64,000 bases of DNA from an uncultured Bacillales bacterium (GTDB lineage: Bacteria; Bacillota_I; Bacilli_A; RFN20; CAG-826). The DNA is taken from NCBI GenBank assembly GCA_946612115.1, contig CAMOEI010000006.1, forward strand, positions 11,484 to 75,483, in the 5' to 3' direction. The position numbers were made by a program, and so were the translations under genes. Of the stretch, positions 3,526-64,000 are shown piece after piece. The notes beneath the pieces are model-generated. The model was not told the DNA's origin. It was given only the letters and a program-made list of their open reading frames with translations, and ran no database searches. Every line of letters begins with the position of its first letter. Within the stretch, counting starts at the first letter, position 1.

Positions 3526-3539
3526 ACACGAACAAAAAA

Positions 3540-3566
3540 GAACCGGATAATCGGTTCTCTACTTTT
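3540..3566. terminator. bidirectional intrinsic terminator
   Basis: GAACCG-gataat-CGGTTC hairpin flanked by an A-run upstream and a T-rich stretch downstream. Serves the convergent genes at 3313-3525 and 3591-3884. Confidence 0.55.
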
Positions 3567-3590: not shown

Positions 3591-3884
3591 TTATTTAGCA
3601 TCAACACTCCATTGGTATCCACATTTTCTGCATGTATTGTGGTACCAATTTTTATCATTGCTTTGATAATATCTGCTTTCAATATCATTGCTTTTACATT
3701 GTGGGCAAATAAAGTCTGATGTGATTGTGCAAGCACCACCACTAACCGCAGCTAATTGTTCATCGGAAAGTTCAATACCTTCAGACTTAGCTAAAGATAA
3801 GAGTTCTTCACTGTTTTTGCAGGCTTTAACTTTTCTAACTTGTTCTTCAGTTAATCCTTTAAGCAAATCTTTTTTCATATTCAA
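3591..3884 (-). CDS. Nif11-type double-glycine leader peptide precursor with Cys-rich zinc-ribbon-like core (paralogue 1)
   Basis: Leader MNMKKDLLKGLTEEQVRKVKACKNSEELLSLAKSEGIELSDEQLAAVSGG. Core ACTITSDFICPQCKSNDIESRYYQSNDKNWYHNTCRKCGYQWSVDAK. RBS AAAGGAGAA. Conserved operator at 3919-3938. Confidence 0.8.
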   Translation of the reverse strand: MNMKKDLLKGLTEEQVRKVKACKNSEELLSLAKSEGIELSDEQLAAVSGGACTITSDFICPQCKSNDIESRYYQSNDKNWYHNTCRKCGYQWSVDAK

Positions 3885-3918: not shown

Positions 3919-3938
3919 GTTGTCACAAATGTGCCACA
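3919..3938 (-). promoter_or_regulatory. conserved direct-repeat operator TGTGGCACA-TT-TGTGACAAC (copy 1)
   Basis: Identical to the element upstream of 54220. Lies ~40 bp upstream of the start codon. Confidence 0.6.
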
Positions 3939-4127
3939 GGCACTTAGAGAGAAAGCTAGTAAGCCAATGAGTGGTAATAATAATCTTTTTTTTCATAATA
4001 ATAAACCCTGTTTTTTTCTTTCTAACATTATATTTTATTTACTAATAAAAACCTAACATTTAAGAAATTAACTATAGTTTTCCTATTTATAACTTAGATT
4101 GTACAAATAGTTATGAATAAATATGTA

Positions 4128-48230: not shown

Positions 48231-49055
48231 ATGAAAAATATTAAAGTCAAAAACATTGTTATCAGCATCACTGGAATTGGTGACGATGATTTTGTCAATC
48301 TTACTGATATAGCGAGAATTGTTAACCCAGAGTTTCCTTCTTATGTGGTTAGAAACTGGATGAGATTAAGAGCCACTATTGAATTTTTAGGAATTTGGGA
48401 GAAATTAAACAATGAATATTTTAATTTGACCGAATTCGATCAAATAAAAAATGCTTCAGGATCTAACGCATTTGTTATGACTGCTACAAAATGGGTAAAA
48501 GAAACTAACGCAATCGGAATAAAACCAAGACGTGGTAAATATAGTGAAGGCACTTTTGCTCATCGTGATATTGCGTTAGAATTTGCGTCTTGGATTTCTG
48601 CTGAAGTAAAGCTTTATATTATCAAAGAGTTCCAAAGACTAAAGATTCAAGAATCAGAACAACTTGAATGGCAAGGGAAGAGGTTGTTAACGAAGTTAAA
48701 TTATCTGATTCATACGGATGCCGTTAAGGAATATTTGGTTCCTGTTGAATTATCAAATGAACAAAAGAATTTTATTTATGCTAGTGAAGCAGATCTTTTG
48801 AATGTTGCCCTGTTTGGTAGAACTGCAAAAGAGTGGAGAGATACGAACATAGGCAAAGAAGGCAATATACGAGATTACGCAAATACTATTGAATTAGCGA
48901 TTCTTAGTAACCTTGAATATTTGAATTCAATGCTAATTACGCAAAAACTATCACAACAAGAAAGGCTAGTTATTCTTAATAAAGAAGCAAATAGAGAAAA
49001 AGAACTATTCAATAAGAATAGTGTTAAACCAATTAAGATGATTGAAAAGAAGTAA
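48231..49055 (+). CDS. KilA-N domain protein (phage-associated DNA-binding family)
   Basis: FVNLTDIARIVNPEFPSYVVRNWMRLRATIEFLGIWEKLNN matches the KilA-N signature (...NW.R...T.EFLG.WE..NN). Confidence 0.5.
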   Translation: MKNIKVKNIVISITGIGDDDFVNLTDIARIVNPEFPSYVVRNWMRLRATIEFLGIWEKLNNEYFNLTEFDQIKNASGSNAFVMTATKWVKETNAIGIKPRRGKYSEGTFAHRDIALEFASWISAEVKLYIIKEFQRLKIQESEQLEWQGKRLLTKLNYLIHTDAVKEYLVPVELSNEQKNFIYASEADLLNVALFGRTAKEWRDTNIGKEGNIRDYANTIELAILSNLEYLNSMLITQKLSQQERLVILNKEANREKELFNKNSVKPIKMIEKK

Positions 49056-49226: not shown

Positions 49227-49278
49227 AAATGATGCCCTGCTTGTGTAGAATAACTGAGCAAAATAGAACCTATTTTTT

Positions 49279-49298
49279 TGTGGCACATTTGTGACAAC
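49279..49298 (+). promoter_or_regulatory. conserved direct-repeat operator TGTGGCACA-TT-TGTGACAAC (copy 2)
   Basis: ~35 bp upstream of the 49333 start. Same element as at 3919, 53782, 54166, 55018 and 62893. Confidence 0.6.
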
Positions 49299-49332
49299 CA
49301 ATGTGTTAGGATTTATTTAGCAAAGGAGAACT

Positions 49333-49626
49333 TTGACAATGAGAAAAGATTTACTAAAAGGTTTAACTGAAGAACAAGTTAAAAAAGTTGAATCATGCAA
49401 AAACCAAGATGAAATTTTAGCGTTAGCAAAAGCCGAAGGCGTTGAATTAACCGAAGAACAATTAAACGCGATTAATGGTGGATGCGGAAAAAGCAAAGAA
49501 TGGTATGAAATCGATGAGATGCAATGCCCAGAATGTTTAAATAGACACTGCATGGAAAAAGTTTCTGATGCTTGGTATAGATGCAAGTGGTGTAACAAAA
49601 TCACGGTCAACAAAAATCTCGAATAA
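49333..49626 (+). CDS. Nif11-type double-glycine leader peptide precursor with Cys-rich core (paralogue 2)
   Basis: Leader MTMRKDLLKGLTEEQVKKVESCKNQDEILALAKAEGVELTEEQLNAINGG. Core CGKSKEWYEIDEMQCPECLNRHCMEKVSDAWYRCKWCNKITVNKNLE. RBS AAAGGAGAA. Terminator at 49641-49666. Confidence 0.8.
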   Translation: MTMRKDLLKGLTEEQVKKVESCKNQDEILALAKAEGVELTEEQLNAINGGCGKSKEWYEIDEMQCPECLNRHCMEKVSDAWYRCKWCNKITVNKNLE

Positions 49627-49698
49627 TCAAAATGACGAAACAACCGAGTGAATGGCTCGGTTTTTCTTATACAAGAAAAGTGTGTTATAATATCATAG

Positions 49699-51006
49699 AT
49701 GAGAAGAAGTAATTTATTTAGTTTAGTTTCTTTATCAATTGTCACTATATTAACGAGTTGTCAATCCGCTTCTGCGATTAAAGTCCCTTTTGATACTGGA
49801 GAGAATATTAAAGTTAATGGCTACACATTAAGACAGGCTGTTGTTTTAAGCAGACACAACATCCGTTCTCCATTAAGTGAACCAGGATCTATTTTAAATA
49901 GATTAACTCCACATTCTTGGTATCCATGGTCTTCTAAAGCTGGAGAACTATCCTTAAAAGGTGGGGCGTTAGAAACTGAAATGGGCCATTATTTTAGAAA
50001 GTGGCTTGAAGATAGTAAATTATTTCCACTTAACTATCATCCAAGCGGAGAAGAAGTAAGAATCTATGCGAATGCGAAACAAAGAACCATCGCTACTGCG
50101 AATTATTTTTCTACCGCTTTACTTCCTAGCGCGGACATCGATGTTGAAGTAAAAGTTCCTTACGATACGATGGATCCAGTTTTTAACCCGCAGATGACTT
50201 TTTTAAGCGATTCATATATCAAAGCTGCTAAAGATGAAATCTTTGCTAATTATGGAGATGATATCGAAGGGCTTAAAGATGAATATGCTTTATTAAAAGA
50301 TGTTCTTTCTTTTAAGAAATCTGAAGCATATTTAAGTGGAGAATTTACTGATTTTAGATTAGATGACACTGAATTAGAATACGTGATGAATAGAGAACCA
50401 ATTATGAGCGGTTCATTAAGTATTGGAGTTCTCGCTAGCGATGCTTTAGTGCTTCAACATTATGAAGAAATAGATAACGCCAAATCAGCGTTTGGTAAAA
50501 ATCTTTCCTTTAAGCAGTGGCAAGATATTTGTCGTATTAAAGACACATATATGAAAGTTAATTTCTTCTCCCCTTTAGTGTCTTTAATGGTTGCTCATCC
50601 ATTATTAGAAGAAATTGAAAAAGAATTAACTAATGATGAACGTAAATTCTCTTTCTTATGTGGTCATGATTCTAATTTAGGTACATTACTTACATCTTTA
50701 GATGTTAAGGAATATGAATTAGTTGGTTCAGTGGAAAGCGAAACTCCAATTGGTTCAAAGGTAGTATTCTCTACTTTCTCTAATATTCATGATGAAGAGT
50801 TTGTTCGCGCTGATCTGGTATATCAAAATGTTGATTATTTAAGAAATGTCACCTTACTTGATTTAGACACTCATCCAAGTGTCACTCCTTTATATTTCAA
50901 TGGATTAACCATGAATGAAGATGGGTTATATAGAAAAGATGAGTTTGTTTCCCATCTCCATAATAGTGTCCTTGAATACGATAGAATCGTAGAAAGGTAC
51001 TCATAA
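49699..51006 (+). CDS. histidine acid phosphatase family lipoprotein (glucose-1-phosphatase/phytase-like)
   Basis: Lipobox LTSC. RHNIRSP (RHGxRxP) catalytic motif and CGHDSN (HD) motif. Own promoter with an extended -10 (TGTGTTATAAT). Confidence 0.8.
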   Translation: MRRSNLFSLVSLSIVTILTSCQSASAIKVPFDTGENIKVNGYTLRQAVVLSRHNIRSPLSEPGSILNRLTPHSWYPWSSKAGELSLKGGALETEMGHYFRKWLEDSKLFPLNYHPSGEEVRIYANAKQRTIATANYFSTALLPSADIDVEVKVPYDTMDPVFNPQMTFLSDSYIKAAKDEIFANYGDDIEGLKDEYALLKDVLSFKKSEAYLSGEFTDFRLDDTELEYVMNREPIMSGSLSIGVLASDALVLQHYEEIDNAKSAFGKNLSFKQWQDICRIKDTYMKVNFFSPLVSLMVAHPLLEEIEKELTNDERKFSFLCGHDSNLGTLLTSLDVKEYELVGSVESETPIGSKVVFSTFSNIHDEEFVRADLVYQNVDYLRNVTLLDLDTHPSVTPLYFNGLTMNEDGLYRKDEFVSHLHNSVLEYDRIVERYS

Positions 51007-53728: not shown

Positions 53729-53781
53729 GATAAGTAATATCAAGAATATATCGTTACATATAATGTAACGATTTTTCTTTT

Positions 53782-53800
53782 TGTGACACATTTGTGGCAA
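53782..53800 (+). promoter_or_regulatory. conserved direct-repeat operator TGTGACACA-TT-TGTGGCAA (copy 3)
   Basis: ~40 bp upstream of the ATG at 53842. Confidence 0.6.
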
Positions 53801-53841: not shown

Positions 53842-54123
53842 ATGAAACAAGAATTATTAAAAGGATTAAGCGAAGAACAAATCGCTAAAATTAAATCGTG
53901 TAAGAACAGTGAAGATTTACTTTCCTTAGCAAAAGTTGAAGGAGTAGAACTTACTGATGAACAACTTTCCGCGATCAGTGGAGGAGGATGTTTCTCGACG
54001 ATTAAATGTCCAAAATGTGGATGTACAAAGCATTATAAAGAAGAAAAGTATGTTGGAACAGCTGGAGCCTCTACAATAACAACTTATACTTGTAAAGATT
54101 GCGGATATAAGTGGATCGAATAA
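53842..54123 (+). CDS. Nif11-type double-glycine leader peptide precursor with Cys-rich core (paralogue 3)
   Basis: Start at the internal ATG 53842, which has RBS AAAGGAGAA (the track ORF starts at 53794). Leader MKQELLKGLSEEQIAKIKSCKNSEDLLSLAKVEGVELTDEQLSAISGGG. Core CFSTIKCPKCGCTKHYKEEKYVGTAGASTITTYTCKDCGYKWIE. Terminator at 54143-54165. Confidence 0.8.
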   Translation: MKQELLKGLSEEQIAKIKSCKNSEDLLSLAKVEGVELTDEQLSAISGGGCFSTIKCPKCGCTKHYKEEKYVGTAGASTITTYTCKDCGYKWIE

Positions 54124-54165
54124 ACTCGTTTATAGTATTAAGAAGCCCTTTGGGCTTTTTATTTT

Positions 54166-54185
54166 TGTGGCACATTTGTGACAAC
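54166..54185 (+). promoter_or_regulatory. conserved direct-repeat operator TGTGGCACA-TT-TGTGACAAC (copy 4)
   Basis: The 70 bp upstream of 54220 are identical to the region upstream of paralogue 1. Confidence 0.6.
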
Positions 54186-54219
54186 CGTTATGATAAATTA
54201 AAGACAACAAAGGAGAACT

Positions 54220-54513
54220 TTGAATATGAAAAAAGAATTACTTAAAGGATTAACTGAAGAACAAGTTAGAAAAGTTAAGGCCTGCAAAAATAGTGAAGAA
54301 TTATTATCTTTAGCAAAGAGCGAAGGTATTGAATTAACCGATGAACAACTCGCTGCGGTCAGTGGTGGAGGATATTGTAGAAGCACTCCAACATTCGTCT
54401 GCCCAAAATGTGGCTCAGGAAAAATCAAAACCAAATATAACGAAAACTCCATTAATGAGTGGTATAACAATACCTGCCAAGATTGTGGATTCGTTTGGAT
54501 TGTTGACGCTTAG
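54220..54513 (+). CDS. Nif11-type double-glycine leader peptide precursor with Cys-rich core (paralogue 4)
   Basis: Leader is identical to paralogue 1 except S/T and K/E changes. Core GYCRSTPTFVCPKCGSGKIKTKYNENSINEWYNNTCQDCGFVWIVDA. Terminator at 54538-54563. Confidence 0.8.
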   Translation: MNMKKELLKGLTEEQVRKVKACKNSEELLSLAKSEGIELTDEQLAAVSGGGYCRSTPTFVCPKCGSGKIKTKYNENSINEWYNNTCQDCGFVWIVDA

Positions 54514-54614
54514 TATTTAATAAAATAACTTAGAATCGCCACTAAAAAAGTGGCTTTTCTTTTGCAATAAAAAATGAGATGAAATCTCACCTCATTTATT
54601 TTCAATAAAACTTA

Positions 54615-54947
54615 TTAGTCGTTACCGGCGATTAAACCGAATAATCCGCCTAAGAAATAGAAGATGTTCGCTCCAATAATGCCACAAATAAGGAAGAAAA
54701 CATCCCATCCTTTGCTGGTTCCTTTTTTCTTCGCTCTTCTAACCATGGAAATTGTGATGATTCCAACTAAGAAGATGATGATGAAGTACACTAAGGTGCC
54801 AACAGTGAATTGTGACATATCAATATTTGGAATTTGAACATGTGCAATGTTAAGACTGCAGAAGACAATACCAGCAATACTAACTAAGACTAGTAACCAG
54901 GTAAAGAAGTTTGCAATGCTATACATTACCGCAGAAGCTTTATGCAT
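54615..54947 (-). CDS. small polytopic membrane protein (110 aa, 3-4 TM)
   Basis: Hydrophobic helices and a basic loop (RRAKKKGTSKG). Convergent with the peptide gene pair. Confidence 0.5.
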   Translation of the reverse strand: MHKASAVMYSIANFFTWLLVLVSIAGIVFCSLNIAHVQIPNIDMSQFTVGTLVYFIIIFLVGIITISMVRRAKKKGTSKGWDVFFLICGIIGANIFYFLGGLFGLIAGND

Positions 54948-55017
54948 AATTATCTCTCCTTTTAAATACTTTATAAGTATATATCAAAATCTATGAATGT
55001 TTACACTTTTTCAAAAG

Positions 55018-55034
55018 TGTGGCACTTTTGTGCG
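55018..55034 (+). promoter_or_regulatory. variant direct-repeat operator TGTGGCAC-TTT-TGTGCG (copy 5)
   Basis: ~45 bp upstream of the ATG at 55078. Confidence 0.45.
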
Positions 55035-55077
55035 TTATATTTGTTAGAATAGTTCGACCTTCATGGAGGAAGTATCA

Positions 55078-55740
55078 ATGTTTTCAAAGAAAATAATAAT
55101 TACAACAGCCTTAGTTGGCACCTCACTTGCCTTAGTTGGCACATTAATCGGTACAAATACGTTTGCATTTACTATTTCAAGAGCCGCTGCAACAGATAAA
55201 GATTTTACTTTTAACCAAAGTGTTGCAAGCAAAGTTACATATAGCGGTAGTCCAACAAATCCTGTAGTAAGCAATGTGACCACTGATGTTAGCACTCCTA
55301 TATCTGTAAAATTCTATAGAGAATCCGCGCCTAGTGGTGCATACAGTCCTGGTCCTGGCGAAAACGGCTCTTTTCTTTATGATAAATTTTCATGCGAGAA
55401 GACTTATGCATTTGAAGCCGGGATTAATAATCTAACTAAATTTGAGATACAATTTAAATACATTTATAGCAGCGAAATTTACGATGATTTCGACGATCAC
55501 TTTAATTATAATGTGCAGTTGACTTTCTATAATGGTAACACAGTTGTCGATACTGCATATTATTCATCTGATAGAACTACTAAGGGAGTAATTTATACCC
55601 ATACTTGGGATAAGAGCGGCGAAGTTAGTCAGAAGATTGATTATTTTAAATGTACGTTATATAGCGGAGGCGGCGGAGGAGGAAGAGATACATTTAGAGA
55701 ACTGTTCCTCTATTACTATAAAGTTTGGTGGAGCTGCTAA
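55078..55740 (+). CDS. secreted hypothetical protein (220 aa)
   Basis: ATG at 55078 with RBS GGAGGAAG (the track start at 55063 falls in the RBS region). N-terminal signal peptide MFSKKIIITTALVGTSLALVGTLIGTNTFA. Gly-run near the C-terminus. Confidence 0.5.
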   Translation: MFSKKIIITTALVGTSLALVGTLIGTNTFAFTISRAAATDKDFTFNQSVASKVTYSGSPTNPVVSNVTTDVSTPISVKFYRESAPSGAYSPGPGENGSFLYDKFSCEKTYAFEAGINNLTKFEIQFKYIYSSEIYDDFDDHFNYNVQLTFYNGNTVVDTAYYSSDRTTKGVIYTHTWDKSGEVSQKIDYFKCTLYSGGGGGGRDTFRELFLYYYKVWWSC

Positions 55741-55776
55741 CTCTTAAAATAGAACCCTTCAATCTAGGGTTCTTTT

Positions 55777-56724
55777 TTGTTATTATGTTTTAAGAATATG
55801 AAAGCGGACGACAAAAAGACAAAAGCTTTTTATATCGTTGGATTAACTAGTGGAATTTTAGCGATTGTTTTCTGCTTGATTTCTATTGGTCTATCAGTGG
55901 TTAATAACTATGTTGGGATTTATACGTTGTCAACCGCGTTAACGATGTTAGGTGTTAACCGTATTGGTTTCCACGTTAGCAATGTTAAGGAGAATATGTT
56001 CGAGAATATCTTCTTAACTGTTTTCATCTTTATATTGGCAGTATTAGTTGGATTAACCAAATATGGAATATACTTCCTTATTTCTTCTATGTTCTTATAT
56101 TCTCTTACAGTCATCGCAGCGAGAATGTTAAAGATTAAAGAAGATCATTCTACTCAATCGATTGTTTTTAATGTTTTAAGTTCAGCGTTTTGTTTCTTAT
56201 TTTCTTTTGTGTTTTTCTTCCCTGAGATTTACGCAAAACACGCGACCAGTGTTAGCAATTCAAACTTCATCGTTTTCTGCTTCTCAATAATGATTATTAT
56301 TTCTAGTAGCAAAAACGTTTTATTCCCATATCACAAAACTTTGAAGATTAATGTCATTACTAAAGTTATTAAGAAGTCTCTTGTTTATGAAATCATCTTA
56401 GCGTTATTAATTCTTGTTATTTTGTGCTCCATATATTTCACTCTTGTGGAACCAAATATGACAAGCTATGTTGACGCCTTATGGTATTCGTTCTCAGTTA
56501 TCACAACGATTGGATTCGGAGATGTTGCAGTCACCACAACTTTAGGAAGAATTCTATCAATTATTTTAGGTGTCTGTGGAATCGTAGTGGTGGCCTTATT
56601 CACCTCGGTTATTGTTAACTTCTACAATGAGATGAACAAGAAAAGAGAACTAAAAGAAATTGAAAAGGCTGTTGAGAAAGCCGGACAAAAAGAAGAAGAT
56701 AAAGAGCAAGAAAAATCGAAATAA
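55777..56724 (+). CDS. potassium channel (Ion_trans_2 family)
   Basis: Selectivity filter TTIGFGDV, multiple TM helices, charged C-terminal tail. Exact start is uncertain (MKADD at 55798 is also possible). Confidence 0.75.
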   Translation: MLLCFKNMKADDKKTKAFYIVGLTSGILAIVFCLISIGLSVVNNYVGIYTLSTALTMLGVNRIGFHVSNVKENMFENIFLTVFIFILAVLVGLTKYGIYFLISSMFLYSLTVIAARMLKIKEDHSTQSIVFNVLSSAFCFLFSFVFFFPEIYAKHATSVSNSNFIVFCFSIMIIISSSKNVLFPYHKTLKINVITKVIKKSLVYEIILALLILVILCSIYFTLVEPNMTSYVDALWYSFSVITTIGFGDVAVTTTLGRILSIILGVCGIVVVALFTSVIVNFYNEMNKKRELKEIEKAVEKAGQKEEDKEQEKSK

Positions 56725-56865
56725 TCAGTATTTTTTCGCTCAAAACGCCATTTATTTGTAAATTTTTTGAATTTTGACGAATTAGTGAACAACATTTTAT
56801 ATGTTTAACAATTCAATTTTTATAGTAAAATTTATTTCGTTAGATTATAGAGGTTAGTTATTAAT

Positions 56866-58044
56866 ATGGAAAAACATCGTACTAGAGCGCAAGACATTGC
56901 AAAGGGAATGATGATTATCGCTGTTGTCTTTTTTCACTGTCATTTAGTGACTTTTGATCCACCAGTTGCAGCCTTATCTCAATTCAATATTTTATCGGCG
57001 ATTTTTCCGTTTTTATTAAGTTCATTCTTTTTCTATTCTGGATATAATTACAATTCTCACGAGAGAACATTTAAAGAAAAGCTCATAAGAAGAGTCAAAC
57101 AATTGCTTATTCCTTTAGTTATTGCTTTTGTGACATCGACGATTTTAATCACTGCGATGGAACTAGCTTATAACCATAATGATGTAGGTGGTACTTTCTT
57201 AGCGGTTGGTAATACCATTTTATATAGTTTGATGTCTGAACCATTTGCCTTGCTACTTCAATACCCAACTGGTCCATTTGTGTTTGAACTTGTCGTCGCT
57301 TTAGGCTTACTTTGGTTCTTATATTCTCTATTTATTTGTTCGATTTTCTTCTATTTGTTAGTGGATCACACGAATAAGAGTCCGAAGACTTTGGTCTCTG
57401 TAGTAGTGGGTCTACTCCTTATAGCATTTGCGTTAGGACAATTTGTTGGAGTGTATCTTCCATATACAGTTCAATGTTATCCAGTTATTTTAGCGATTAT
57501 GCTTACTGCCTCATATTTAAGACAATCTCATTTCTTAAATAGAAGAACAGTTAGTAAAAAAGATGTCCTCGTTAGAGGAATTAACGTTGTCATTGCTGAA
57601 GGAGTTATTATTGGAACTTGTTTCCTTTGCTATTACTTATTTGGAGCGACCACAACTGGTAATTTGCCAGGAGGAAGATTTGATCCAATCCTTAAAGGAT
57701 TTGATGCATTTATTGCTTACGCCTTTGGCATTTTAGGAACATATTTCTTACATTCTTTATGTCGATTAATCAAACATGTCCCAGTTGTTGGTAAGTGCTT
57801 GCAGTGGGTTGGTAATCATTCGGCGATGTTTTATTTATTCCATCCAATCTTTTTAGATTTAGCGGCGATAGTTATTTTCCAAAAGAAAATCATTTGGGGA
57901 CAAGGACAAGCTTATTTCTATGTCTTTGTTGTTGTTGGCTTACTCACTATTACATGTTTATTAATGGATTTCATCATTAAGAAAGTTCACAAAAAAGAAA
58001 TTACTGATGAAGTTAGAAATAGAGAAGCTCCAGAAGATATTTAA
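56866..58044 (+). CDS. acyltransferase family 3 (OatA/OafA-like) integral membrane protein
   Basis: About ten TM helices. N-terminal motif AKGMMIIAVVFFHC typical of AT3 O-acyltransferases. Confidence 0.75.
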   Translation: MEKHRTRAQDIAKGMMIIAVVFFHCHLVTFDPPVAALSQFNILSAIFPFLLSSFFFYSGYNYNSHERTFKEKLIRRVKQLLIPLVIAFVTSTILITAMELAYNHNDVGGTFLAVGNTILYSLMSEPFALLLQYPTGPFVFELVVALGLLWFLYSLFICSIFFYLLVDHTNKSPKTLVSVVVGLLLIAFALGQFVGVYLPYTVQCYPVILAIMLTASYLRQSHFLNRRTVSKKDVLVRGINVVIAEGVIIGTCFLCYYLFGATTTGNLPGGRFDPILKGFDAFIAYAFGILGTYFLHSLCRLIKHVPVVGKCLQWVGNHSAMFYLFHPIFLDLAAIVIFQKKIIWGQGQAYFYVFVVVGLLTITCLLMDFIIKKVHKKEITDEVRNREAPEDI

Positions 58045-58045
58045 G

Positions 58046-59704
58046 ATGAGTGAAGAAAGAAAAATAGATTATTATCTATTTGAAGATATCTATAATGTGG
58101 ATGAATCCGATTCTAATAAGATCGCGATTCATTTTAAAGATGCTTCTTATTCTTTTTTAGAAGTTAGAAAAAGCGTTGATTATTACTGTCATTACTTAAA
58201 TAGTAAAGGTGTTAAAAAAGACGACCATGTCGCGATTATTTCGATGAATAGTTTTAATGATTTAATCGCCTTTTATTCAGTAATCAAACTAGGTGCGGTG
58301 GCGGTCTTGTTTAACTATATGGCTAGACATGACACCTTAGTGAAACTAGTGAAACATACAGACTGTAAATATCTATGTTATGGTTCATATAACGCTTCGA
58401 TTAAAGATGAAAAAGAATTAGATGCTTTATTAGAAGAAACCGAAATTAAAAAGGAAAATGCTTTTTCTATTCGAAATAGAGAATTAAATTTCAAAGAAAT
58501 TTTATCTAAAGAAATTGAGATTCCTTCATTTACTTCCCCATATTCTAGAGAAGAGGATAGTAAAAGAACTTCTTATATCATTTTCACGACCGGCACAACT
58601 GCAGATCCTAAAGCAGCGATGTTATCTCAATATAGTTTGATGAATATCATCTATCTTAACTTTGCAAAGTTAGACCCAATCTTCCCTCAAAAGTTTATGT
58701 GTCTACTTCCAATGTTTCACTGCTTTGGCTTATTAGTGGTTAATGCTTATTTAGCCTTTAAAAGGACAGTTTATCTCAATTCATTAGAAGACAAAGTTCA
58801 AATCTATAAAGAATTTATCAAACATAAATGTGGAGATTACGCTTCAGTAGCGATTATCTTTGATAAATTAGCGAAAGCTCCTTTCTGGTGGCTTCATAGA
58901 GGAAGTTTTGTTAGACACTGTATCGTTGGAGGAGGATTTACCTCTGAACAAGAATTTAAATTCTTGGAAAGAAAATACGGCAAAGGTAAGTTCATGAACG
59001 GATATGGTCAAACTGAATGCTCTCCAATGATTTCTTTGGTCTATCCTGATTCTCCAAAAGAAAAACAAATGACCACAGTGGGAACAGTGATGAAAGATAT
59101 TGAAATTGCTTTTATGGATCCTGGTAGTAAAAAGATTTTACCAAAAGGACAAGTTGGAGAAATTTTAATTAAAGGATATAACGTTTTTAATGGCTACTAT
59201 AAAATGCCTAAAGAAAAACAACCATTTGATAAAGATGGCTATTTACACACTGGAGATCTTGGCTATTTAGATAAAGATGGTTATCTCGTATTAAATGGGA
59301 GAATTAAAGATACGATTATTCGATATGGAGAAAATATTTCTCCAAAAGAAATTGAAGCGGAGCTAGAGAAGTTTCCTGAATTCGGTCATGTAAGAGTGTT
59401 AGGTTTCCCTTCAATTGATGAAGGAGAATATATCATCGCTTGTGTTGAATTAAAAAAGAAACCACCTCACTTTATCGAAGAGAAGTATTTCGAAGAAATG
59501 CATAAGACTCTCCCTTCAGTAAAGATTCCTTCTCACATCATTTATATGAAGAAGTTCCCATTAACTGCAAGTGGAAAACTTGATGAAATCAAGCTTAGAG
59601 AAATATGTATGACTAAACTAGCTTTATATCTAGATGAAGAAATGCTTGCGATTAAAACAAAAAAATTAATGTACAAACAAAATGAAAAGAAGCGTCGTAA
59701 ATAG
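58046..59704 (+). CDS. AMP-binding enzyme (acyl-CoA synthetase / adenylate-forming ligase)
   Basis: Motifs IIFTTGTTADPKAAMLS (AMP-binding A3), YGQTE, GDLGYLDKDGYLVLNGRIKD. The ATG at 58046 directly follows the upstream stop. Confidence 0.9.
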   Translation: MSEERKIDYYLFEDIYNVDESDSNKIAIHFKDASYSFLEVRKSVDYYCHYLNSKGVKKDDHVAIISMNSFNDLIAFYSVIKLGAVAVLFNYMARHDTLVKLVKHTDCKYLCYGSYNASIKDEKELDALLEETEIKKENAFSIRNRELNFKEILSKEIEIPSFTSPYSREEDSKRTSYIIFTTGTTADPKAAMLSQYSLMNIIYLNFAKLDPIFPQKFMCLLPMFHCFGLLVVNAYLAFKRTVYLNSLEDKVQIYKEFIKHKCGDYASVAIIFDKLAKAPFWWLHRGSFVRHCIVGGGFTSEQEFKFLERKYGKGKFMNGYGQTECSPMISLVYPDSPKEKQMTTVGTVMKDIEIAFMDPGSKKILPKGQVGEILIKGYNVFNGYYKMPKEKQPFDKDGYLHTGDLGYLDKDGYLVLNGRIKDTIIRYGENISPKEIEAELEKFPEFGHVRVLGFPSIDEGEYIIACVELKKKPPHFIEEKYFEEMHKTLPSVKIPSHIIYMKKFPLTASGKLDEIKLREICMTKLALYLDEEMLAIKTKKLMYKQNEKKRRK

Positions 59705-59729
59705 ATGCTTCTTTCTTATATATAAGAAG

Positions 59730-62099
59730 CTATTCTCTTTCTTTAACTGATTCTGGTAAGTTCCATTTCCTCATTGAACTCATTACTATAAAGTGAGAGA
59801 TGAGTAAGAACACTAGAACAAGCACTGTTGTAGCGACATACATCACCCAACTTTTTGGGAATGGATGAATTTGACTTGGCACTGAAATAGAATGTAATAG
59901 TCCTTTAGAGAGCAATATTCCTATTGGAATCGCAAAAACCATCGCAATGAGATATTGGAACAAACTAACAAATAAGTTAGCGTTAGAAATCGAACTTCTT
60001 TGATAACCTAACGTTCTCATTGTAGCGAAGGTTCTTTTTTGCTCTTTTAGGTTTGTCTGCATCATATTAAAGACAATCATAAAGCCGATGACAATCGCCA
60101 TGACGGTTAATAATCTACTCGAGATTTCAAACGCTGCGAGTCGATCATTAAATTCACCTTTAATCACATTAGTGTAGGCGATATAAGTCACGTGATTAGT
60201 GTCTTTATATTTATTAAAGAATTCGTTTTGGTTATTTACTTTTACTAGTAAAGACCCTCGAGAATATTCAGGAGAATAGTCCTCATAATTAGTGTAACTA
60301 ACTTGAAATAAGTATTGATTAGAAATACATGACACGGTTAAAGAAACATCATTAGCCTTAATGACATCTCCAACCTTCGCGTCTAATAGATGCGCGTGAT
60401 AACTAGATAAAACAATTGAGTTTTCTGGAATAGTGATCGTGTGTTGGTAGTCATCAACTACACGGATTAGGTTTTGTTCGCTTTTAATCCCGTTGATTAA
60501 CGCGGTGGTCTTTTTGTTATTTGAAGTATTGACTATCTCACTAGGGAGATATTTGATCAATGTCTTTGATTTAATGTTTTTGTCACTGCTAGGGAAATAG
60601 GTTTCTATATCAGAATCACTTGGTAAATTATCAAAATAGACTTGAACATCATAGTTGAGTCTCGTCTCAAATAATTGAGACATCATTGTGACTTTACTCT
60701 CGCCTATAGACATCGCAATAAAGATTAACATTCCACTGGCTAATAAGCAGATTCCAGAAAGGATATATCTTCTAAAATTTCTTAATGTTTGAGAAATAGT
60801 TACTTTTAAAGTAATTGGAGATTTTTTAAAGACGGTTCTAGTTAATAAAGGAGTTTCATTATTACTAGGAGGTAAAGCTTTCATTGCCTCCACTGGCTTA
60901 ATTCTTGAGATGTTAAGTGAGGCCAAGAAAGAAGTTAATAAAGTGACAATGACAATTATTCCTAAAGAAATAAACATCGCGCCTGGATGCATAACAAATG
61001 GTTGAGGGAAAAGCTTTAACGCACTTCCATAGGCGATGTTTGCAATCGCGGTGAAAGCGGAACCGATTCCAATACCTAATATCCAGGCTAAAACACCCAC
61101 CACAAGTCCTAGTGACATGTAGACTAGAGAAATACTTTTGGTGCTTTCTCCTAACGCTCTCATAACTCCGATATCTTTACGGCACTGTTTTACGATTTGA
61201 GATAAGAATAAAGCGGTGACGATTAAAACAACGATAAAGAAGACTCCAGGAGCGAGCAAGGTAATTAAATTAACTGCGTTTAAGGCATTATTATAATAAT
61301 CCATGACTTCAGAATCATCATAAGTAGTCGCGTAGGAGATGTTTTTTCTCATCTGAGCGACCATTTCTTCAGTGATTTCAATTCCAGTTTTTTCATGGAT
61401 ATATTCTTTTAATTTATCAATAGTCTGGTCAATGTTCATTTCTTGACCATCTTTAAAGTTATATAAAACTTCATTGAAATAAGCTTTATCTGAATGATTA
61501 ATAATTGTTTCTTTTGGAACATATAAATAGGCGAAGTCTCTATTAGAGGCAATAGAATATGGATCCGCTTTAACCATTGAGGCTTCAGGAGAAACAATAG
61601 TAGAGTTAATCGTATATTCTAATAAATCTCCATTAGGCATCTTCGCGGAGACAACATCTCCAACTTTTAATCCGTTAGAGGTAGCAAAATAATATTCTAA
61701 TAAGTTAGAATCTTCTTCGATTTTTCCTGTTACTGAATGATGTTTTAAAATACTAGTTTCATCATAACCAATTAATTTGACTGAATATGATTTTTTACCT
61801 CTAGTAAATGTAGTGGTGTAAGCGGTGCGATATTCCGCTTTTTCAATCCCCATATAGTCGTTATAATCACTAGGTAAATAATCTAAATAAGAAGATTCCA
61901 CCCCTTCGATAGTTTGAGCGTATAAATCTGGATATCCACATTCTTGAATTAAAGAATGGATGTTTGTGTCTATCGAATGATAGGCATTTCTTAATCCAAT
62001 TAGGATTCCACAGCCAAACGCTCCAACGAGGATGACGCTAAGAAGCATCAACCAGAAACGCTTAAAATATGGTAATAAAAGCGATTTTACTAATCTCAT
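59730..62099 (-). CDS. BceB/MacB-type ABC transporter permease with duplicated FtsX domains and two large extracellular domains
   Basis: 789 aa. Two 4-TM FtsX bundles, each preceded by a ~200-aa extracytoplasmic domain. Immediately downstream of its ATPase gene. Confidence 0.8.
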   Translation of the reverse strand: MRLVKSLLLPYFKRFWLMLLSVILVGAFGCGILIGLRNAYHSIDTNIHSLIQECGYPDLYAQTIEGVESSYLDYLPSDYNDYMGIEKAEYRTAYTTTFTRGKKSYSVKLIGYDETSILKHHSVTGKIEEDSNLLEYYFATSNGLKVGDVVSAKMPNGDLLEYTINSTIVSPEASMVKADPYSIASNRDFAYLYVPKETIINHSDKAYFNEVLYNFKDGQEMNIDQTIDKLKEYIHEKTGIEITEEMVAQMRKNISYATTYDDSEVMDYYNNALNAVNLITLLAPGVFFIVVLIVTALFLSQIVKQCRKDIGVMRALGESTKSISLVYMSLGLVVGVLAWILGIGIGSAFTAIANIAYGSALKLFPQPFVMHPGAMFISLGIIVIVTLLTSFLASLNISRIKPVEAMKALPPSNNETPLLTRTVFKKSPITLKVTISQTLRNFRRYILSGICLLASGMLIFIAMSIGESKVTMMSQLFETRLNYDVQVYFDNLPSDSDIETYFPSSDKNIKSKTLIKYLPSEIVNTSNNKKTTALINGIKSEQNLIRVVDDYQHTITIPENSIVLSSYHAHLLDAKVGDVIKANDVSLTVSCISNQYLFQVSYTNYEDYSPEYSRGSLLVKVNNQNEFFNKYKDTNHVTYIAYTNVIKGEFNDRLAAFEISSRLLTVMAIVIGFMIVFNMMQTNLKEQKRTFATMRTLGYQRSSISNANLFVSLFQYLIAMVFAIPIGILLSKGLLHSISVPSQIHPFPKSWVMYVATTVLVLVFLLISHFIVMSSMRKWNLPESVKERE

Positions 62100-62105
62100 T
62101 ATTTT

Positions 62106-62816: not shown

Positions 62817-62892
62817 AAGTTAACCTCTTAGTCATTAACCATTTTATAACTACTTACTCTTTTTTTTGAGAGAAATTTCTACCTTTTTTACT

Positions 62893-62910
62893 GTGACACT
62901 TTTGTGGCAG
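62893..62910 (+). promoter_or_regulatory. direct-repeat operator TGTGACAC-TTT-TGTGGCAG (copy 6) in the divergent intergenic region
   Basis: ~50 bp upstream of the lipoprotein ATG at 62962, and divergent from the ABC ATPase gene. Confidence 0.5.
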
Positions 62911-62961: not shown

Positions 62962-64000
62962 ATGAAAAATAAACTATTACCTTTATTACTAGTTGGAGCG
63001 TTTGTCTTAACTGGATGTACGATTAAATTGGAAGGACGTGGTTCATCTAATCCAGTTGATCCCGCTCACGAAGAAGAGGAAGAAGAAATCTATCCAGAAC
63101 ACAACCATTATTGGGAAGCCCCTATTTGGTCTTGGAGTGAAGACAATCAAACCGCTAGAGCGAAGTTCAGATGTTCAGTTTATAACCATTACCACATTGA
63201 AACCGCAACAGTGGAAGATGAACAAATTGAAATCGAAAACATTAAAGAAGCCGACCACTATGAAGATGGCTTAGACAAATATGTCGCTACTGTGACCTTT
63301 AGTGGAGCGACATATACTTCTCCAGATCATTTCGTAGTCATCAATCAAGGTCAACACGAATTTAATGAATATGGAATCTGTTTAGCGGATGGAGAATTCC
63401 TCTATAAGGAAACCAATGAACTTGATTACGACTTTGAATGGATGCAAATGTATGGCGAATATAAAGCTGAAGTCAATGTCGATAGTGAAGACTATGTCGC
63501 TGTTGGAGATAAGATCATCTTCAAATTTCATCTTGATCATAAAGGGCACGAGATTAAACTTAGAGATTTAGTGAACATTACAGTTGATGATATAACCATT
63601 GGTTATGTTTGGTATGAAGATTTCTATGAAGTCAAATATACAGAATATTATGAACATACCTTTGAAGACTTCCCATCAAATAACGTTTTTGCGATTGTTG
63701 ATAAGAATTCCGAACAGACAAATCGTAGTTTCTCAATTGTTGAATGCCACACATGTAACAAAATAGGAATTTGTGAAGATTGTGAAAGATACTTTGGCGC
63801 ATATTTTGGTACAACTCAAGCAATTACCTTCAGCTTTACTGCTGGAAAAGTAATTAACTTCCGTTTCCAAGCTTGGCCAGGAAGAAAATATTATGTATTC
63901 TTCCAAAGAGACTTAGAGGGTCATGAAGATGAATTTGAAATCTATACGGTTGATCAATATTTCAATCCAGTCCCTTATGATTTAAATGATCCATTCCCAG
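62962..64000 (+). CDS. lipoprotein of unknown function (partial, runs off the window end)
   Basis: ATG at 62962 with RBS AAAGGAAGGATGG. Lipobox LTGC. The frame stays open to position 64000. Acidic, His/Tyr-rich. Confidence 0.6.
   Translation, partial: MKNKLLPLLLVGAFVLTGCTIKLEGRGSSNPVDPAHEEEEEEIYPEHNHYWEAPIWSWSEDNQTARAKFRCSVYNHYHIETATVEDEQIEIENIKEADHYEDGLDKYVATVTFSGATYTSPDHFVVINQGQHEFNEYGICLADGEFLYKETNELDYDFEWMQMYGEYKAEVNVDSEDYVAVGDKIIFKFHLDHKGHEIKLRDLVNITVDDITIGYVWYEDFYEVKYTEYYEHTFEDFPSNNVFAIVDKNSEQTNRSFSIVECHTCNKIGICEDCERYFGAYFGTTQAITFSFTAGKVINFRFQAWPGRKYYVFFQRDLEGHEDEFEIYTVDQYFNPVPYDLNDPFP

What the first reader, a model, noticed from the sequence alone, without database searches (positions are those of the whole stretch)
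53842..54513. Family of four Nif11-type GG-leader peptides with zinc-ribbon-like Cys cores and no maturase in sight
Four paralogous small genes (3591-3884 on the minus strand, 49333-49626, 53842-54123, 54220-54513) share a highly conserved ~50-aa leader, (M)KKDLLKGLTEEQV.KVK.CKNSEELLSLAK.EG(I/V)EL(S/T)(D/E)EQL.A(V/I)(S/N)GG(G). The leader ends in a double glycine and matches the Nif11/nitrile-hydratase-type leaders of RiPP and bacteriocin precursors. The cores are hypervariable, but each has a Cys right after the GG, then CPxC, then about 20 aa later (T/R)CxxC(G/N)(Y/F/K)xW. That is a C-x2-C...C-x2-C zinc-ribbon-like spacing, with 5-6 Cys in total. Conserved leaders with diversified cores are the hallmark of secreted, modified or disulfide-bonded peptides. 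No LanM, radical-SAM enzyme, cyclodehydratase or C39-peptidase ABC exporter is present in these 64 kb. A secreted zinc-ribbon mini-protein behind a Nif11 leader is not a class I recognise.
Basis: partly seen in the sequence, partly recalled or inferred. Interest (0 to 1): 0.85.

Follow-up and report, generated by a model that had tools for sequence, protein, structure and literature searches.

The report
Exported zinc-ribbon mini-proteins with Nif11-like leaders
Four small genes in this rumen-bacterium fragment belong to a large, unnamed family of precursors in which a Nif11-like export leader ending in Gly-Gly is fused to a 45-residue zinc-ribbon domain; related genomes place the family next to a radical-SAM enzyme and a leader-cleaving ABC exporter, which makes it an unusual variant of a known peptide-export system.

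Summary
Four paralogous genes of 93-95 aa share a 48-aa leader ending in GG. Each core has one Cys 0-2 residues after GG and a CxxC...CxxC zinc ribbon. Each gene has its own conserved promoter box, RBS and terminator.

The leader is a shortened Nif11-type leader: 35 of 41 family members hit PF07862, but the four window proteins score below the curated cut-offs. The core is a zinc ribbon by Pfam, AlphaFold2 (pLDDT about 90) and Foldseek.

No maturase or exporter lies in the 64 kb, but that is typical of Nif11-derived precursors. In related rumen Erysipelotrichaceae/Bacilli and Lachnospiraceae genomes the family has up to 21 or more dispersed copies. It is physically linked to one conserved cluster: a HipA-like protein, a short-core precursor, a radical SAM/SPASM enzyme, a small HlyD-like protein, a C39 PCAT (TIGR03796-like), ABC2 (TIGR03797-like), STAS and SpoIIE. 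The same promoter box precedes cluster genes and dispersed copies.

Most likely mechanism: leader-guided GG cleavage and export of zinc-ribbon mini-proteins, possibly after radical-SAM modification at the conserved Cys-Ser/Thr motif.

No library model or paper describes this family. Verdict: new variant of a known kind, moderately high interest.

The parts
3591..3878 (-). Precursor gene 1 (95 aa): 48-aa Nif11-like GG leader plus core ACTITSDFICPQCKSNDIESRYYQSNDKNWYHNTCRKCGYQWSVDAK
   Evidence: Translation; leader tblastn E 3e-26; sub-threshold Nif11 and zinc-ribbon Pfam hits.
3920..3939 (-). Conserved promoter/operator box CTGTGGCACATTTGTGACAA upstream of gene 1
   Evidence: 4 matches in the window, 0 expected by chance; alignment; read as -35-like GTGGCA, 16 nt, TATGAT by the scan.
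3537..3560 (-). Intrinsic-terminator-like hairpin after gene 1
49339..49626 (+). Precursor gene 2 (95 aa): the most divergent core, CGKSKEWYEIDEMQCPECLNRHCMEKVSDAWYRCKWCNKITVNKNLE
   Evidence: Translation; Nif11 at 22.5 bits, E 1.5e-4; leader tblastn E 6e-20.
49278..49297 (+). Conserved box TTGTGGCACATTTGTGACAA upstream of gene 2
49642..49662 (+). Terminator-like hairpin after gene 2
53842..54123 (+). Precursor gene 3 (93 aa): core GCFSTIKCPKCGCTKHYKEEKYVGTAGASTITTYTCKDCGYKWIE
   Evidence: Translation; Zn_ribbon_TFIIS at 26.4 bits, above the gathering score of 21.
53781..53800 (+). Conserved box TTGTGACACATTTGTGGCAA upstream of gene 3
54139..54161 (+). Terminator-like hairpin after gene 3, immediately before the box of gene 4
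54226..54513 (+). Precursor gene 4 (95 aa, = P0001): core GYCRSTPTFVCPKCGSGKIKTKYNENSINEWYNNTCQDCGFVWIVDA
   Evidence: Translation; gene call in the public contig; AlphaFold2 model with core pLDDT about 90; zinc-ribbon fold matches.
54165..54184 (+). Conserved box TTGTGGCACATTTGTGACAA upstream of gene 4
54538..54554 (+). Terminator-like hairpin after gene 4
62892..62909 (+). Fifth copy of the box (TGTGACACTTTTGTGGCA), 53 nt upstream of a predicted lipoprotein gene, so the same putative regulon
62962..64000 (+). 5' part of a 382-aa predicted lipoprotein gene (MKNKLLPLLLVGAFVLTGC...) driven by the fifth box; it runs off the window end
   Evidence: no Pfam or NCBIfam hit.
54615..54947 (-). 110-aa protein with three hydrophobic segments, convergent with gene 4; weak candidate immunity or accessory protein
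   Evidence: Recurs at the end of member arrays in L006 and L007; hydropathy analysis; no family hit.

Best explanation
The four genes encode precursors of a large family found in rumen Firmicutes. Each precursor has three modules.
(1) A 48-aa helical leader derived from the Nif11 domain, ending in the double-glycine motif ELTDEQLAAVSGG.
(2) A short junction that always holds one Cys within 0-4 residues of GG, followed by a Ser/Thr-rich stretch.
(3) A CPxCG...CxxCG zinc ribbon of about 40 residues.

Proposed mechanism (inferred, not shown): each gene is transcribed on its own from a shared promoter/operator box, so the genes form a regulon. The leader docks the precursor on a C39-peptidase ABC exporter of the NHLP/Nif11 class, a PCAT working with a peptidase-less ABC2 partner and a small HlyD-like protein. 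This exporter is encoded elsewhere in the genome. It cuts after GG and exports a zinc-ribbon mini-protein of about 45 aa.

Before export, the radical SAM/SPASM enzyme of the same cluster probably modifies the conserved Cys-Ser/Thr junction, most plausibly by a thioether cross-link. Its natural neighbour is a short-core precursor that carries the same leader and the same Cys. The four ribbon Cys bind zinc and stabilise the exported domain in the anoxic rumen.

The many diverged but individually conserved cores suggest distinct extracellular targets, either competitors or receptors.
For: Shown by tool results:
- The family is large: at least 602 clusters at 90% identity and 851 representatives at 50% identity found with the leader alone.
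- Invariant G47 and G48, four ribbon Cys, and near-invariant C51 after GG.
- All 316 unique cores have their first Cys 0-4 residues after GG, and 304 of them have CxxC...CxxC.
- Canonical knuckles: Pro after the first Cys in 322 of 365 cores, CxxCG in 274 of 365, and an aromatic residue after knuckle 2 in 327 of 365.
- Nif11 is hit by 35 of 41 members, and every other Pfam hit is a zinc-ribbon family.
- AlphaFold2 gives a three-stranded core with pLDDT about 90, a helical leader and a disordered GG junction. The core matches Pol I A12.2, NrdR and ELOF1 zinc ribbons at 1.6-2.0 A over 40-43 columns.
- Gene neighbourhoods across 78 loci from 33 genomes show a conserved cluster: HipA_C-like protein, short-core precursor, rSAM/SPASM, HlyD-like protein, PCAT, ABC2, STAS.
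- Cluster annotations: Peptidase_C39 at 4e-31; TIGR03796 at 828.5 bits against a cutoff of 853.3; TIGR03797 at 652 against 709.
- A zinc-ribbon member lies inside the operon in L016.
- The reverse test starting from the rSAM enzyme finds the same cluster every time.
- Genomes with one cluster also have dispersed arrays on other contigs.
- The promoter box occurs 4 times in the window with 0 expected. Across the loci it gives 166 hits, 115 of them directly upstream of members and others upstream of cluster genes.
- Both leader and core are under purifying selection, dN/dS about 0.13.
- The closest solved relatives of the rSAM enzyme are the peptide maturases SkfB, SuiB and CteB.

From the literature:
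- A Lachnospiraceae PCAT protease domain (LahT150) cuts Nif11-type leaders and needs only the last 13 leader residues (PMC6363468).
- N11P precursors form dispersed paralogous families tied to TIGR03794/6/7 (PMC2887384).
- A PCAT-type system exports diverse small proteins, limited mainly by length (PMC10231218).
Against: - No exporter or maturase lies in the 64 kb or in the 10 kb beyond it.
- At the position where the syntenic relative L083 has the cluster, the window has other genes, so the window genome may carry the cluster elsewhere or lack it.
- The four window leaders score below the curated cut-offs of PF07862 and TIGR03798. The transporters also fall just below their equivalog cut-offs.
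- Nothing shows that the rSAM enzyme acts on the zinc-ribbon members rather than only on the short-core precursor, and its chemistry is unknown.
- Zinc binding, cleavage and export are untested.
- The cores are close to neutral in charge, median +1, which is unlike many cationic bacteriocins.
- No clearly conserved immunity gene was found.
Confidence: 0.55

Rival explanations
1. Export only. The zinc-ribbon members are unmodified cargo, like class II bacteriocins or microcins, that borrow the leader to use the PCAT. The radical SAM enzyme acts only on the short-core precursor, which may be a signal peptide. The conserved post-GG Cys has another role, for example as a spacer or cleavage-site determinant, or in dimerisation.
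For: The short-core precursor, not a zinc-ribbon member, is the gene directly upstream of the rSAM enzyme in L008, L016, L047, L082 and L083. L063 shows a member next to the HlyD-like, PCAT and ABC2 genes with no rSAM gene in view. PCAT-type exporters accept diverse unmodified small proteins (PMC10231218). A folded zinc ribbon needs no further cross-link.
Against: The same leader and the same Cys-Ser/Thr junction are conserved in both classes. Leader-binding maturases normally act on every peptide that carries their leader. In L016 a zinc-ribbon member lies between the rSAM gene and the exporter genes.
Confidence: 0.27
2. No zinc. The CxxC...CxxC cysteines are substrates of the rSAM/SPASM enzyme and end up in sactionine- or ranthionine-type thioether bridges, so the product is a multiply cross-linked sactipeptide or ranthipeptide rather than a metalloprotein.
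For: An rSAM/SPASM enzyme with an N-terminal extension lies in the linked cluster, and its best solved relative is the thioether-forming SkfB. Peptides 3 and 4 give weak hits to the Cys-rich, rSAM-associated family TIGR04165.
Against: The cores carry canonical zinc-knuckle signatures, CPxCG and CxxCG plus a conserved aromatic residue. They hit many zinc-ribbon Pfam families, one above its gathering score. They are predicted with pLDDT about 90 to fold as a zinc ribbon. The short-core substrates next to the enzyme have only the single junction Cys.
Confidence: 0.1
3. Intracellular proteins. The Nif11-like part is a structural domain rather than a leader, and the proteins act inside the cell as small zinc-ribbon regulators, antitoxins or defence-island components.
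For: Zinc ribbons are typically intracellular nucleic-acid or protein binders. Dispersed copies often sit next to KilA-N, Fic, AbiEii-like and HipA-like genes. No exporter lies in the window.
Against: The GG is invariant and the leader length is fixed, with the spacing of hydrophobic residues that C39 recognises. The family recurs next to a C39 PCAT/ABC2 cassette, including inside the operon. The same leader is fused to unrelated short cores. The GG junction is predicted to be disordered. There are up to 21 or more paralogues per genome.
Confidence: 0.06

Closest known systems
Nif11-derived precursor peptides (N11P, TIGR03798), including prochlorosin ProcA and LahA substrates (Haft et al. 2010, PMC2887384; Bobeica et al. 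2019, PMC6363468)
   Same: A Nif11-related leader that ends in an ELxDEELxAVxGG-type double-glycine motif. Sequence similarity stops at GG. The following region is rich in Cys, Ser and Thr. Families are large and paralogous, with copies dispersed away from the enzymes. The precursors associate with the TIGR03794/6/7 export cassette.
   Different: The leader is 48 aa rather than about 69 and matches only the C-terminal half of the model, so the window proteins score below cutoff. The leader has a near-invariant Cys. The core is a folded zinc-ribbon domain of about 45 aa rather than a short peptide of about 23 aa. The linked enzyme is an rSAM/SPASM protein, not LanM or a cyclodehydratase. The hosts are rumen Firmicutes rather than cyanobacteria.
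Class II bacteriocins and class II microcins exported by peptidase-containing ABC transporters (PCAT)
   Same: A double-glycine leader cut by a C39 domain during export. The cargo is a gene-encoded small protein, and the transporters tolerate many different cargos (PMC10231218).
   Different: Those leaders are 15-25 aa and unstructured, the cargos are usually cationic or hydrophobic membrane-active peptides, and an immunity gene lies next to them. Here the leader is long and helical, the cargo is a near-neutral metal-binding fold, and no clear immunity gene is present.
Radical SAM/SPASM-modified Cys-containing RiPPs (sactipeptides, and ranthipeptides such as SCIFF, thermocellin and freyrasin)
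   Same: An rSAM/SPASM enzyme with an N-terminal extension lies next to a short precursor that has a conserved Cys. The closest solved homologues are SkfB, SuiB and CteB.
   Different: The enzyme reaches no NCBIfam equivalog cutoff, so it is a separate subfamily. The adjacent substrate has a single Cys. Most family members carry an added zinc-ribbon domain. The chemistry is unknown.
Proteusins and NHLP precursors with large protein-like leaders
   Same: Long structured leaders derived from a protein domain, and the same class of NHLM export genes.
   Different: There the leader is the large folded part and the core is a short peptide. Here the core itself is a folded domain.

Membership tests
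Nif11-derived leader peptide precursors (N11P; TIGR03798 / PF07862) | Score at or above the curated cutoff of TIGR03798 (32.3 bits) or PF07862 (23.8 bits) | tested here: not met
   The four window proteins score 15.0-21.2 bits on TIGR03798 and 16.2-22.5 bits on PF07862, matching only model positions 21-50. Across the family, 35 of 41 members hit PF07862 at E<=0.01, best 2.7e-6, and some database members carry a precomputed PF07862 hit. The family is related but divergent and truncated.
Nif11-derived leader peptide precursors (N11P; TIGR03798 / PF07862) | Leader ends in motif 2 (ELSDEELEAVAGG) with Gly-Gly, where family-wide similarity stops | tested here: met
   The window leaders end in ELTDEQLAAVSGG, ELSDEQLAAVSGG, ELTEEQLNAINGG or ELTDEQLSAISGG. 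G47 and G48 are invariant and conservation ends there. The motif is taken from PMC2887384.
Nif11-derived leader peptide precursors (N11P; TIGR03798 / PF07862) | Variable region rich in Cys, Ser and Gly after GG, and large paralogous families in one genome | tested here: met
   Core identity among the four is 9-43% against 65-96% for the leader. A Cys plus a Ser/Thr-rich stretch follows GG in all 316 cores. The minimum copy number per genome reaches 21.
Nif11-derived leader peptide precursors (N11P; TIGR03798 / PF07862) | Association with the TIGR03794/TIGR03796/TIGR03797 export cassette | tested here: inconclusive
   The cassette is absent from the window. It is present next to members in L008, L016, L036, L047, L063, L082 and L083. 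The transporters score just below cutoff: TIGR03796 at 828.5 against 853.3 and TIGR03797 at 652 against 709.4. The HlyD-like protein is only a 127-138-aa fragment match.
Double-glycine (C39/PCAT) leader substrates | GG, GA or GS at -2/-1, hydrophobic residues at -4, -7 and -12, and an acidic residue at -8 or -9 | tested here: met
   V/I at -4, L at -7, L at -12 (100%), E at -9 (98%) and I/V at -14 in 424 unique leaders. Positions -8, -7, -4, -2 and -1 were partly fixed by the search pattern, whereas -12, -14 and -9 were not. TIGR01847 scores 13.6-15.8 bits against a cutoff of 15.7, and only peptide 3 reaches it.
Double-glycine (C39/PCAT) leader substrates | Actual cleavage after GG and export | not testable with these tools
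   This needs protease assays or peptidomics.
Zinc ribbon (rubredoxin-like zinc beta-ribbon) | Two CxxC knuckles (typically CPxCG) on a three-stranded sheet, plus sequence or fold similarity to known zinc ribbons | tested here: met
   Peptide 3 scores 26.4 bits on PF01096, above the gathering score of 21. Zinc-ribbon families are the only non-leader hits in the family. The AlphaFold2 core has pLDDT about 90. Foldseek gives rmsd 1.6-2.0 A to 4c2m_I, 7p37_A and 8b3d_M at probability 0.97-1.0, but the E-values (0.07-0.25) are weak because the domain is short.
Zinc ribbon (rubredoxin-like zinc beta-ribbon) | Binds one Zn through four Cys | not testable with these tools
   This needs metal analysis of the purified core.
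Sactipeptide / ranthipeptide RiPPs | Precursor encoded next to an rSAM/SPASM maturase with a peptide-binding N-terminal domain | tested here: inconclusive
   This is not so in the window. It is so in L003, L008, L016, L036, L047, L082 and L083, but the adjacent gene is the short-core precursor. The enzyme has CxxxCxxC at residue 98, a Cys-rich SPASM tail and about 85 N-terminal residues not covered by the rSAM models. It reaches no equivalog cutoff.
Sactipeptide / ranthipeptide RiPPs | Cys sulfur to carbon thioether bridges in the product | not testable with these tools
   This needs MS/MS or NMR.
Lanthipeptides with Nif11 leaders (prochlorosin / Lah type) | A LanM or other lanthionine synthetase in the genome or cluster | tested here: not met
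   No LanM-like protein is present in the window, and none appears among the recurrent neighbours in the 78 loci. Whole genomes were not searched.

The most novel reading that the evidence does not exclude
These are a previously unrecognised class of secreted metallo-mini-proteins. Zinc ribbons are normally an intracellular fold. Here they would be exported by a PCAT behind a Nif11-like leader and remain zinc-bound outside the cell in the anoxic rumen, where zinc would do the stabilising job that disulfides do in oxic secreted peptides. They would carry a radical-SAM-installed cross-link at the N-terminal Cys-Ser/Thr junction. They would be deployed as a regulon of 10-20 or more diverged paralogues per genome, each with its own extracellular target.
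Probability: 0.3. Interest if true: 0.8.

Novelty: new variant of a known kind. Interest (0 to 1): 0.62.

Why it matters
If the model holds, it extends the Nif11/NHLP precursor system, in which one export and maturation cluster serves many dispersed precursors, in two ways. The hosts change from cyanobacteria to abundant uncultured rumen Firmicutes. The cargo changes from short modifiable peptides to a folded metal-binding domain.

It would be the first case known to me (from my own knowledge plus the searches run here) of a zinc ribbon used as an exported bacteriocin-like or signalling scaffold. It points to a highly conserved, uncharacterised rSAM/SPASM subfamily with simple single-Cys substrates that could be tested readily. 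It also gives a defined regulon, marked by a conserved promoter box and a STAS/SpoIIE partner-switching module, that may control part of the secretome of these bacteria.

In practical terms, the family has hundreds of natural variants on a 45-residue scaffold. It is a ready-made library for studying interference between rumen microbes or for engineering small binders.

Tried and rejected
1. Sigma-54 promoter reading of the box (TGGCAC...). Rejected because the -12 TTGC element is absent at the required spacing (sequence). The box remains an unassigned promoter/operator. The scan reads its first half as a -35-like GTGGCA with a 16-nt spacer to TATGAT.

2. Diversifying selection on the cores. 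Tested with Nei-Gojobori counts on 302 alignable pairs and rejected: dN/dS is 0.13 in the core, the same as in the leader. The pair selection favours conserved subtypes.

3. The ABC pairs of about 590 aa in L011, L021 and L055 clustered with the exporters, but they lack a peptidase N-terminus. I treated them as unrelated ABC transporters.

4. The 463-466-aa proteins that carry the box (L037, L072) were suspected to be rSAM paralogues. They have one Cys and a signal peptide, so they are secreted proteins.

5. The FtsX/ABC pair in the window (59730-62816) as a dedicated exporter or immunity pump. It is syntenic with L083 but is not conserved next to the cluster in the other loci. There is no evidence for a role.

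6. Lipoprotein-like reading of the 'GG-x-Cys plus Ser/Asp/Lys-rich linker' junction. The leader has no hydrophobic h-region, so processing by signal peptidase II is unlikely. I kept this only as an idea.

7. Literature searches pairing zinc ribbon or zinc binding with RiPP, leader peptide, PCAT, Nif11 or rumen found no description of the family. Public databases give no meaningful names.

8. One search failed on wrong coordinates. The ORFs concerned were annotated.
Full report
**1. Observation.**

A tblastn search of the window with the 48-aa leader finds exactly these four (E 6e-20 to 8e-27), and the next hit has E 2.1.

A DNA alignment of the four genes with their flanks shows an identical ribosome-binding block, CAAAGGAGAACTTTGA, ahead of an ATG. 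For the fourth gene this start agrees with the public gene call. The real coding regions are therefore 3591-3878 (-), 49339-49626 (+), 53842-54123 (+) and 54226-54513 (+), giving proteins of 95, 95, 93 and 95 aa.

Small corrections to the description:
- The Cys lies 0-2 residues after GG rather than always next to it.
- Peptide 2 lacks the final Trp of the stated motif.
- There is a further near-invariant Cys in the leader (KACKN).

Leader identity among the four is 65-96% and core identity 9-43%. Peptides 1 and 4 differ in the leader by 10 synonymous and 2 non-synonymous codons, so the leader is kept by selection rather than by recent duplication.

**2. The two protein modules.**

Against Pfam and NCBIfam the leaders hit Nif11 (PF07862, 16.2-22.5 bits against a gathering score of 23.8) and TIGR03798 (15.0-21.2 bits against 32.3). 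These scores are below the cut-offs and cover only the C-terminal half of the models. Across a 41-member alignment, 35 members hit Nif11 at E<=0.01 (best 2.7e-6), and every other family hit is a zinc ribbon.

The last 13 leader residues, ELTDEQLAAVSGG, match the published N11P motif ELSDEELEAVAGG (PMC2887384). They also have the hydrophobic pattern at -4, -7 and -12 that C39 proteases read. LahT150 needs only the last 13 leader residues (PMC6363468).

Peptide 3 passes the gathering score of Zn_ribbon_TFIIS (26.4 against 21). AlphaFold2 run on the alignment gives a three-stranded core at pLDDT about 90, lower-confidence leader helices and a disordered GG junction. The core superimposes on the zinc ribbons of Pol I A12.2, NrdR and ELOF1 at 1.6-2.0 A over 40-43 columns. 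The probability is high, but the E-values are weak, as expected for so short a domain.

In 365 unique cores, Pro follows the first Cys in 322, the second knuckle is CxxCG in 274, and an aromatic residue follows it in 327. The spacer between knuckles is 9-28 residues and the median net charge is +1.

**3. Size and distribution of the family.**

The full protein finds at least 602 clusters at 90% identity, almost all unnamed or given spurious names by automatic annotation. The leader alone finds 851 representatives at 50% identity.

Among the best 149 of these, 78 have zinc-ribbon cores and 27 have short cores. The short cores fall into two recurrent types, which end in ...(H/K)RKI(E/D)(S/N) or in ...P(I/V)xNPF. 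Most of the remaining sequences look fragmentary. A Cys 0-2 residues after GG is common to all classes.

In reference genomes the family occurs in rumen MAGs labelled Erysipelotrichaceae, Bacilli or Bacillales, and in rumen Lachnospiraceae and Pseudobutyrivibrio. I found 222 members in 80 loci. They are often in tandem arrays of up to 10-11, and the minimum count per genome reaches 21. The window itself is from a rumen metagenome scaffold.

**4. Surroundings in the window.**

All ORFs of 90 aa or more were scanned. The window holds Fic, HTH, KilA-N, histidine phosphatase, AdhE, an ion channel, an acyltransferase, an AMP-binding enzyme, a MacB-like FtsX/ABC pair, surface proteins and a block of carbohydrate-utilisation genes.

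**5. Surroundings elsewhere.**

I clustered all neighbouring ORFs of the 78 loci and mapped them. This shows a conserved cluster in L008, L016, L047 and L003, with variants in L036 and L063. Its gene order is:
- a protein of about 395 aa with a weak HipA_C hit (E 0.002);
- a short-core precursor with the same leader, for example ...GGACSNTSTKERPKFES;
- a 464-aa radical SAM/SPASM enzyme;
- a 127-138-aa protein matching only the N-terminus of TIGR03794;
- a 722-aa PCAT (Peptidase_C39 4e-31; TIGR03796 at 828.5 bits against 853.3, full length);
- a 727-aa ABC2 (TIGR03797 at 652 bits against 709);
- a STAS protein.

Zinc-ribbon members lie just upstream of the cluster. In L016 one lies inside the operon, between the rSAM gene and the exporter genes.

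The reverse test started from the rSAM enzyme. It has 1708 homologues at E<=1e-30, and the top 120 are 80-92% identical and unnamed. The four contexts examined all show rSAM, the 127-aa protein, PCAT and ABC2, with STAS and SpoIIE/HATPase_c_2 genes directly downstream or nearby. L082 has five zinc-ribbon members and a short-core precursor upstream. L083 has one of each. L080 has none within 21 kb.

Genomes such as RGIG9687, Pseudobutyrivibrio UBA3626 and SRR11861928_bin.55 have one cluster plus dispersed arrays on other contigs. That is the layout expected for the window genome.

L083 is syntenic with the right-hand part of the window (Acyl_transf_3 at about 66% and FtsX at about 77% amino-acid identity). 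In L083 the cluster lies directly upstream of the acyltransferase. In the window that position holds other genes plus peptides 3 and 4. Whether the window genome carries the cluster elsewhere cannot be decided here.

**6. A shared regulatory element.**

All four window genes are preceded by TTGTGGCAC(A/T)TTTGTG(A/G)CAA, then a -10-like GTGATAAnATA, then the RBS (four matches, none expected). Each gene is followed by a terminator-like hairpin, so each is a separate transcription unit.

Across 1.14 Mb of loci the box occurs 166 times, 115 of them directly upstream of members. Most other copies precede member variants, the HipA-like gene that heads the cluster, the short-core precursor, or secreted proteins, including a roughly 665-aa protein whose L082 counterpart is a Lipase_3 protein.

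A fifth copy in the window (62892-62909) precedes a 382-aa predicted lipoprotein. The dispersed genes and the cluster therefore look like one regulon. The cluster-encoded partner-switching proteins (STAS, SpoIIE/HATPase_c_2, and an ECF-type sigma factor in L036) are candidate regulators, but that link is inference. The Lachnospiraceae loci I inspected lack the box.

**7. Selection.**

For 302 pairs of members that can be aligned without gaps (core DNA identity 72-98.5%), dN/dS is 0.13 in the leader and 0.13 in the core, with pS 0.45-0.53. The cores are very different between paralogues, but each subtype is conserved across genomes. This shows that the genes are real and functional. It also argues for many distinct, stable specificities rather than a fast arms race. 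The pair selection favours conserved subtypes.

**8. Most likely mechanism.**

Shown:
- the modular precursor architecture;
- the Nif11-like GG leader;
- the zinc-ribbon fold prediction;
- the physical and regulatory linkage of the family to an rSAM/SPASM plus NHLM-type PCAT cluster in related genomes.

Inferred:
- the leader directs GG cleavage and export by the PCAT/ABC2 pair;
- the four ribbon Cys bind zinc;
- the rSAM enzyme modifies the shared Cys-Ser/Thr junction. Its closest solved relatives are the peptide maturases SkfB, SuiB and CteB, and its natural neighbour is a single-Cys substrate;
- the exported products act outside the cell.

A PCAT-type system has been shown to export diverse small proteins, limited mainly by length (PMC10231218), so a 45-aa domain is a plausible cargo. 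I put 0.55 on this overall model. The main uncertainty is the rSAM step, and the export-only rival has 0.27. The rival in which the cysteines form thioethers instead of binding zinc has 0.10. An intracellular role has 0.06.

**9. Comparison with known systems and novelty.**

The system works like the N11P/prochlorosin and NHLP systems of Haft et al. 2010. Shared features are a conserved protein-derived leader, a GG cleavage site, a variable core, many dispersed paralogues and one export cassette.

As to membership, the window proteins do not reach the curated cut-offs of TIGR03798 or PF07862, and the leader is about 20 residues shorter. It is best called a divergent relative.

The distinctive features are the folded zinc-ribbon cargo, the invariant junction Cys shared with a short-core subfamily, the uncharacterised rSAM/SPASM subfamily and the promoter-defined regulon. 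No Pfam or NCBIfam model covers the family, and six literature searches found no description. That is absence of evidence within the libraries available here.

I rate it a new variant of a known kind, with interest 0.62.

Noticed in passing
window 62892-62909 and 62962-64000 (+); full gene in L001 18737-19885: A fifth copy of the conserved promoter box precedes a 382-aa predicted lipoprotein (lipobox LTGC) with no family hit. In other loci the box also precedes secreted proteins (about 665 aa, matching the Lipase_3 protein of L082, and about 465 aa). The regulon therefore seems to cover part of the secretome, not only the peptides.
   Followed up: partly
L083 8255-21395 compared with window 54000-61500: The relative L083 is syntenic with the window at Acyl_transf_3 and the 789-aa FtsX gene, but it has the whole rSAM-PCAT-ABC2-STAS-SpoIIE cluster directly upstream of the acyltransferase. 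The window has an ion channel, a 225-aa protein, a 110-aa membrane protein and peptides 3 and 4 there, plus an extra AMP-binding gene (58007-59704).
   Followed up: partly
L008 9664-9900, L016 2059-2259, L047 6533-6718, L082 9792-9986, L083 9817-9999; P0129, P0131, P0173, P0207 and others: A short-core subfamily has the same leader and a single Cys after GG, then an acidic/basic linker and a conserved C-terminus, either ...(H/K)RKI(E/D)(S/N) or ...P(I/V)xNPF. It is the gene directly upstream of the rSAM enzyme. It may be the enzyme's primary substrate, and it could be a signalling peptide.
   Followed up: partly
window 48231-49055 (KilA-N), 49699-51006 (His_Phos_2), 1196-2251 (Fic); L010, L043, L049, L058, L063, L071, L077 (AbiEii-like): Dispersed family copies recur next to conflict-system-type genes: KilA-N in 6 loci, an AbiEii-like nucleotidyltransferase in 7 loci (median 61 nt away), Fic in 3 loci, and a branch-2 histidine phosphatase directly downstream of a member in both the window and L036. 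It is unknown whether any of these act on the peptides.
   Followed up: partly
window 54615-54947 (-): A 110-aa protein with three hydrophobic segments converges on peptide 4 and recurs at the end of member arrays in L006 and L007. It is a possible immunity or accessory protein, but it was seen only in these syntenic loci.
   Followed up: partly
window 39548-45325 (+): A 1925-aa protein with Listeria-Bacteroides repeats carries a C-terminal match to Ribosomal_L27A (PF00828, residues 1853-1921, E 1.4e-12). This is an odd domain for a giant surface-type protein.
   Followed up: no
window 54198-54470 (-), 49317-49745 (-); 27 other loci: Long antisense ORFs overlap the peptide genes and form the largest 'neighbour' cluster (27 loci). 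They are shadow ORFs of the conserved leader sequence, not genes.
   Followed up: yes
L080 1-9856: In one rSAM-PCAT context, the cluster is preceded by an NRPS gene, a MatE-HATPase_c_2 fusion, two SpoIIE phosphatases, several STAS proteins and a STAS-APH kinase fusion. This is an unusually elaborate partner-switching module next to a peptide exporter.
   Followed up: no
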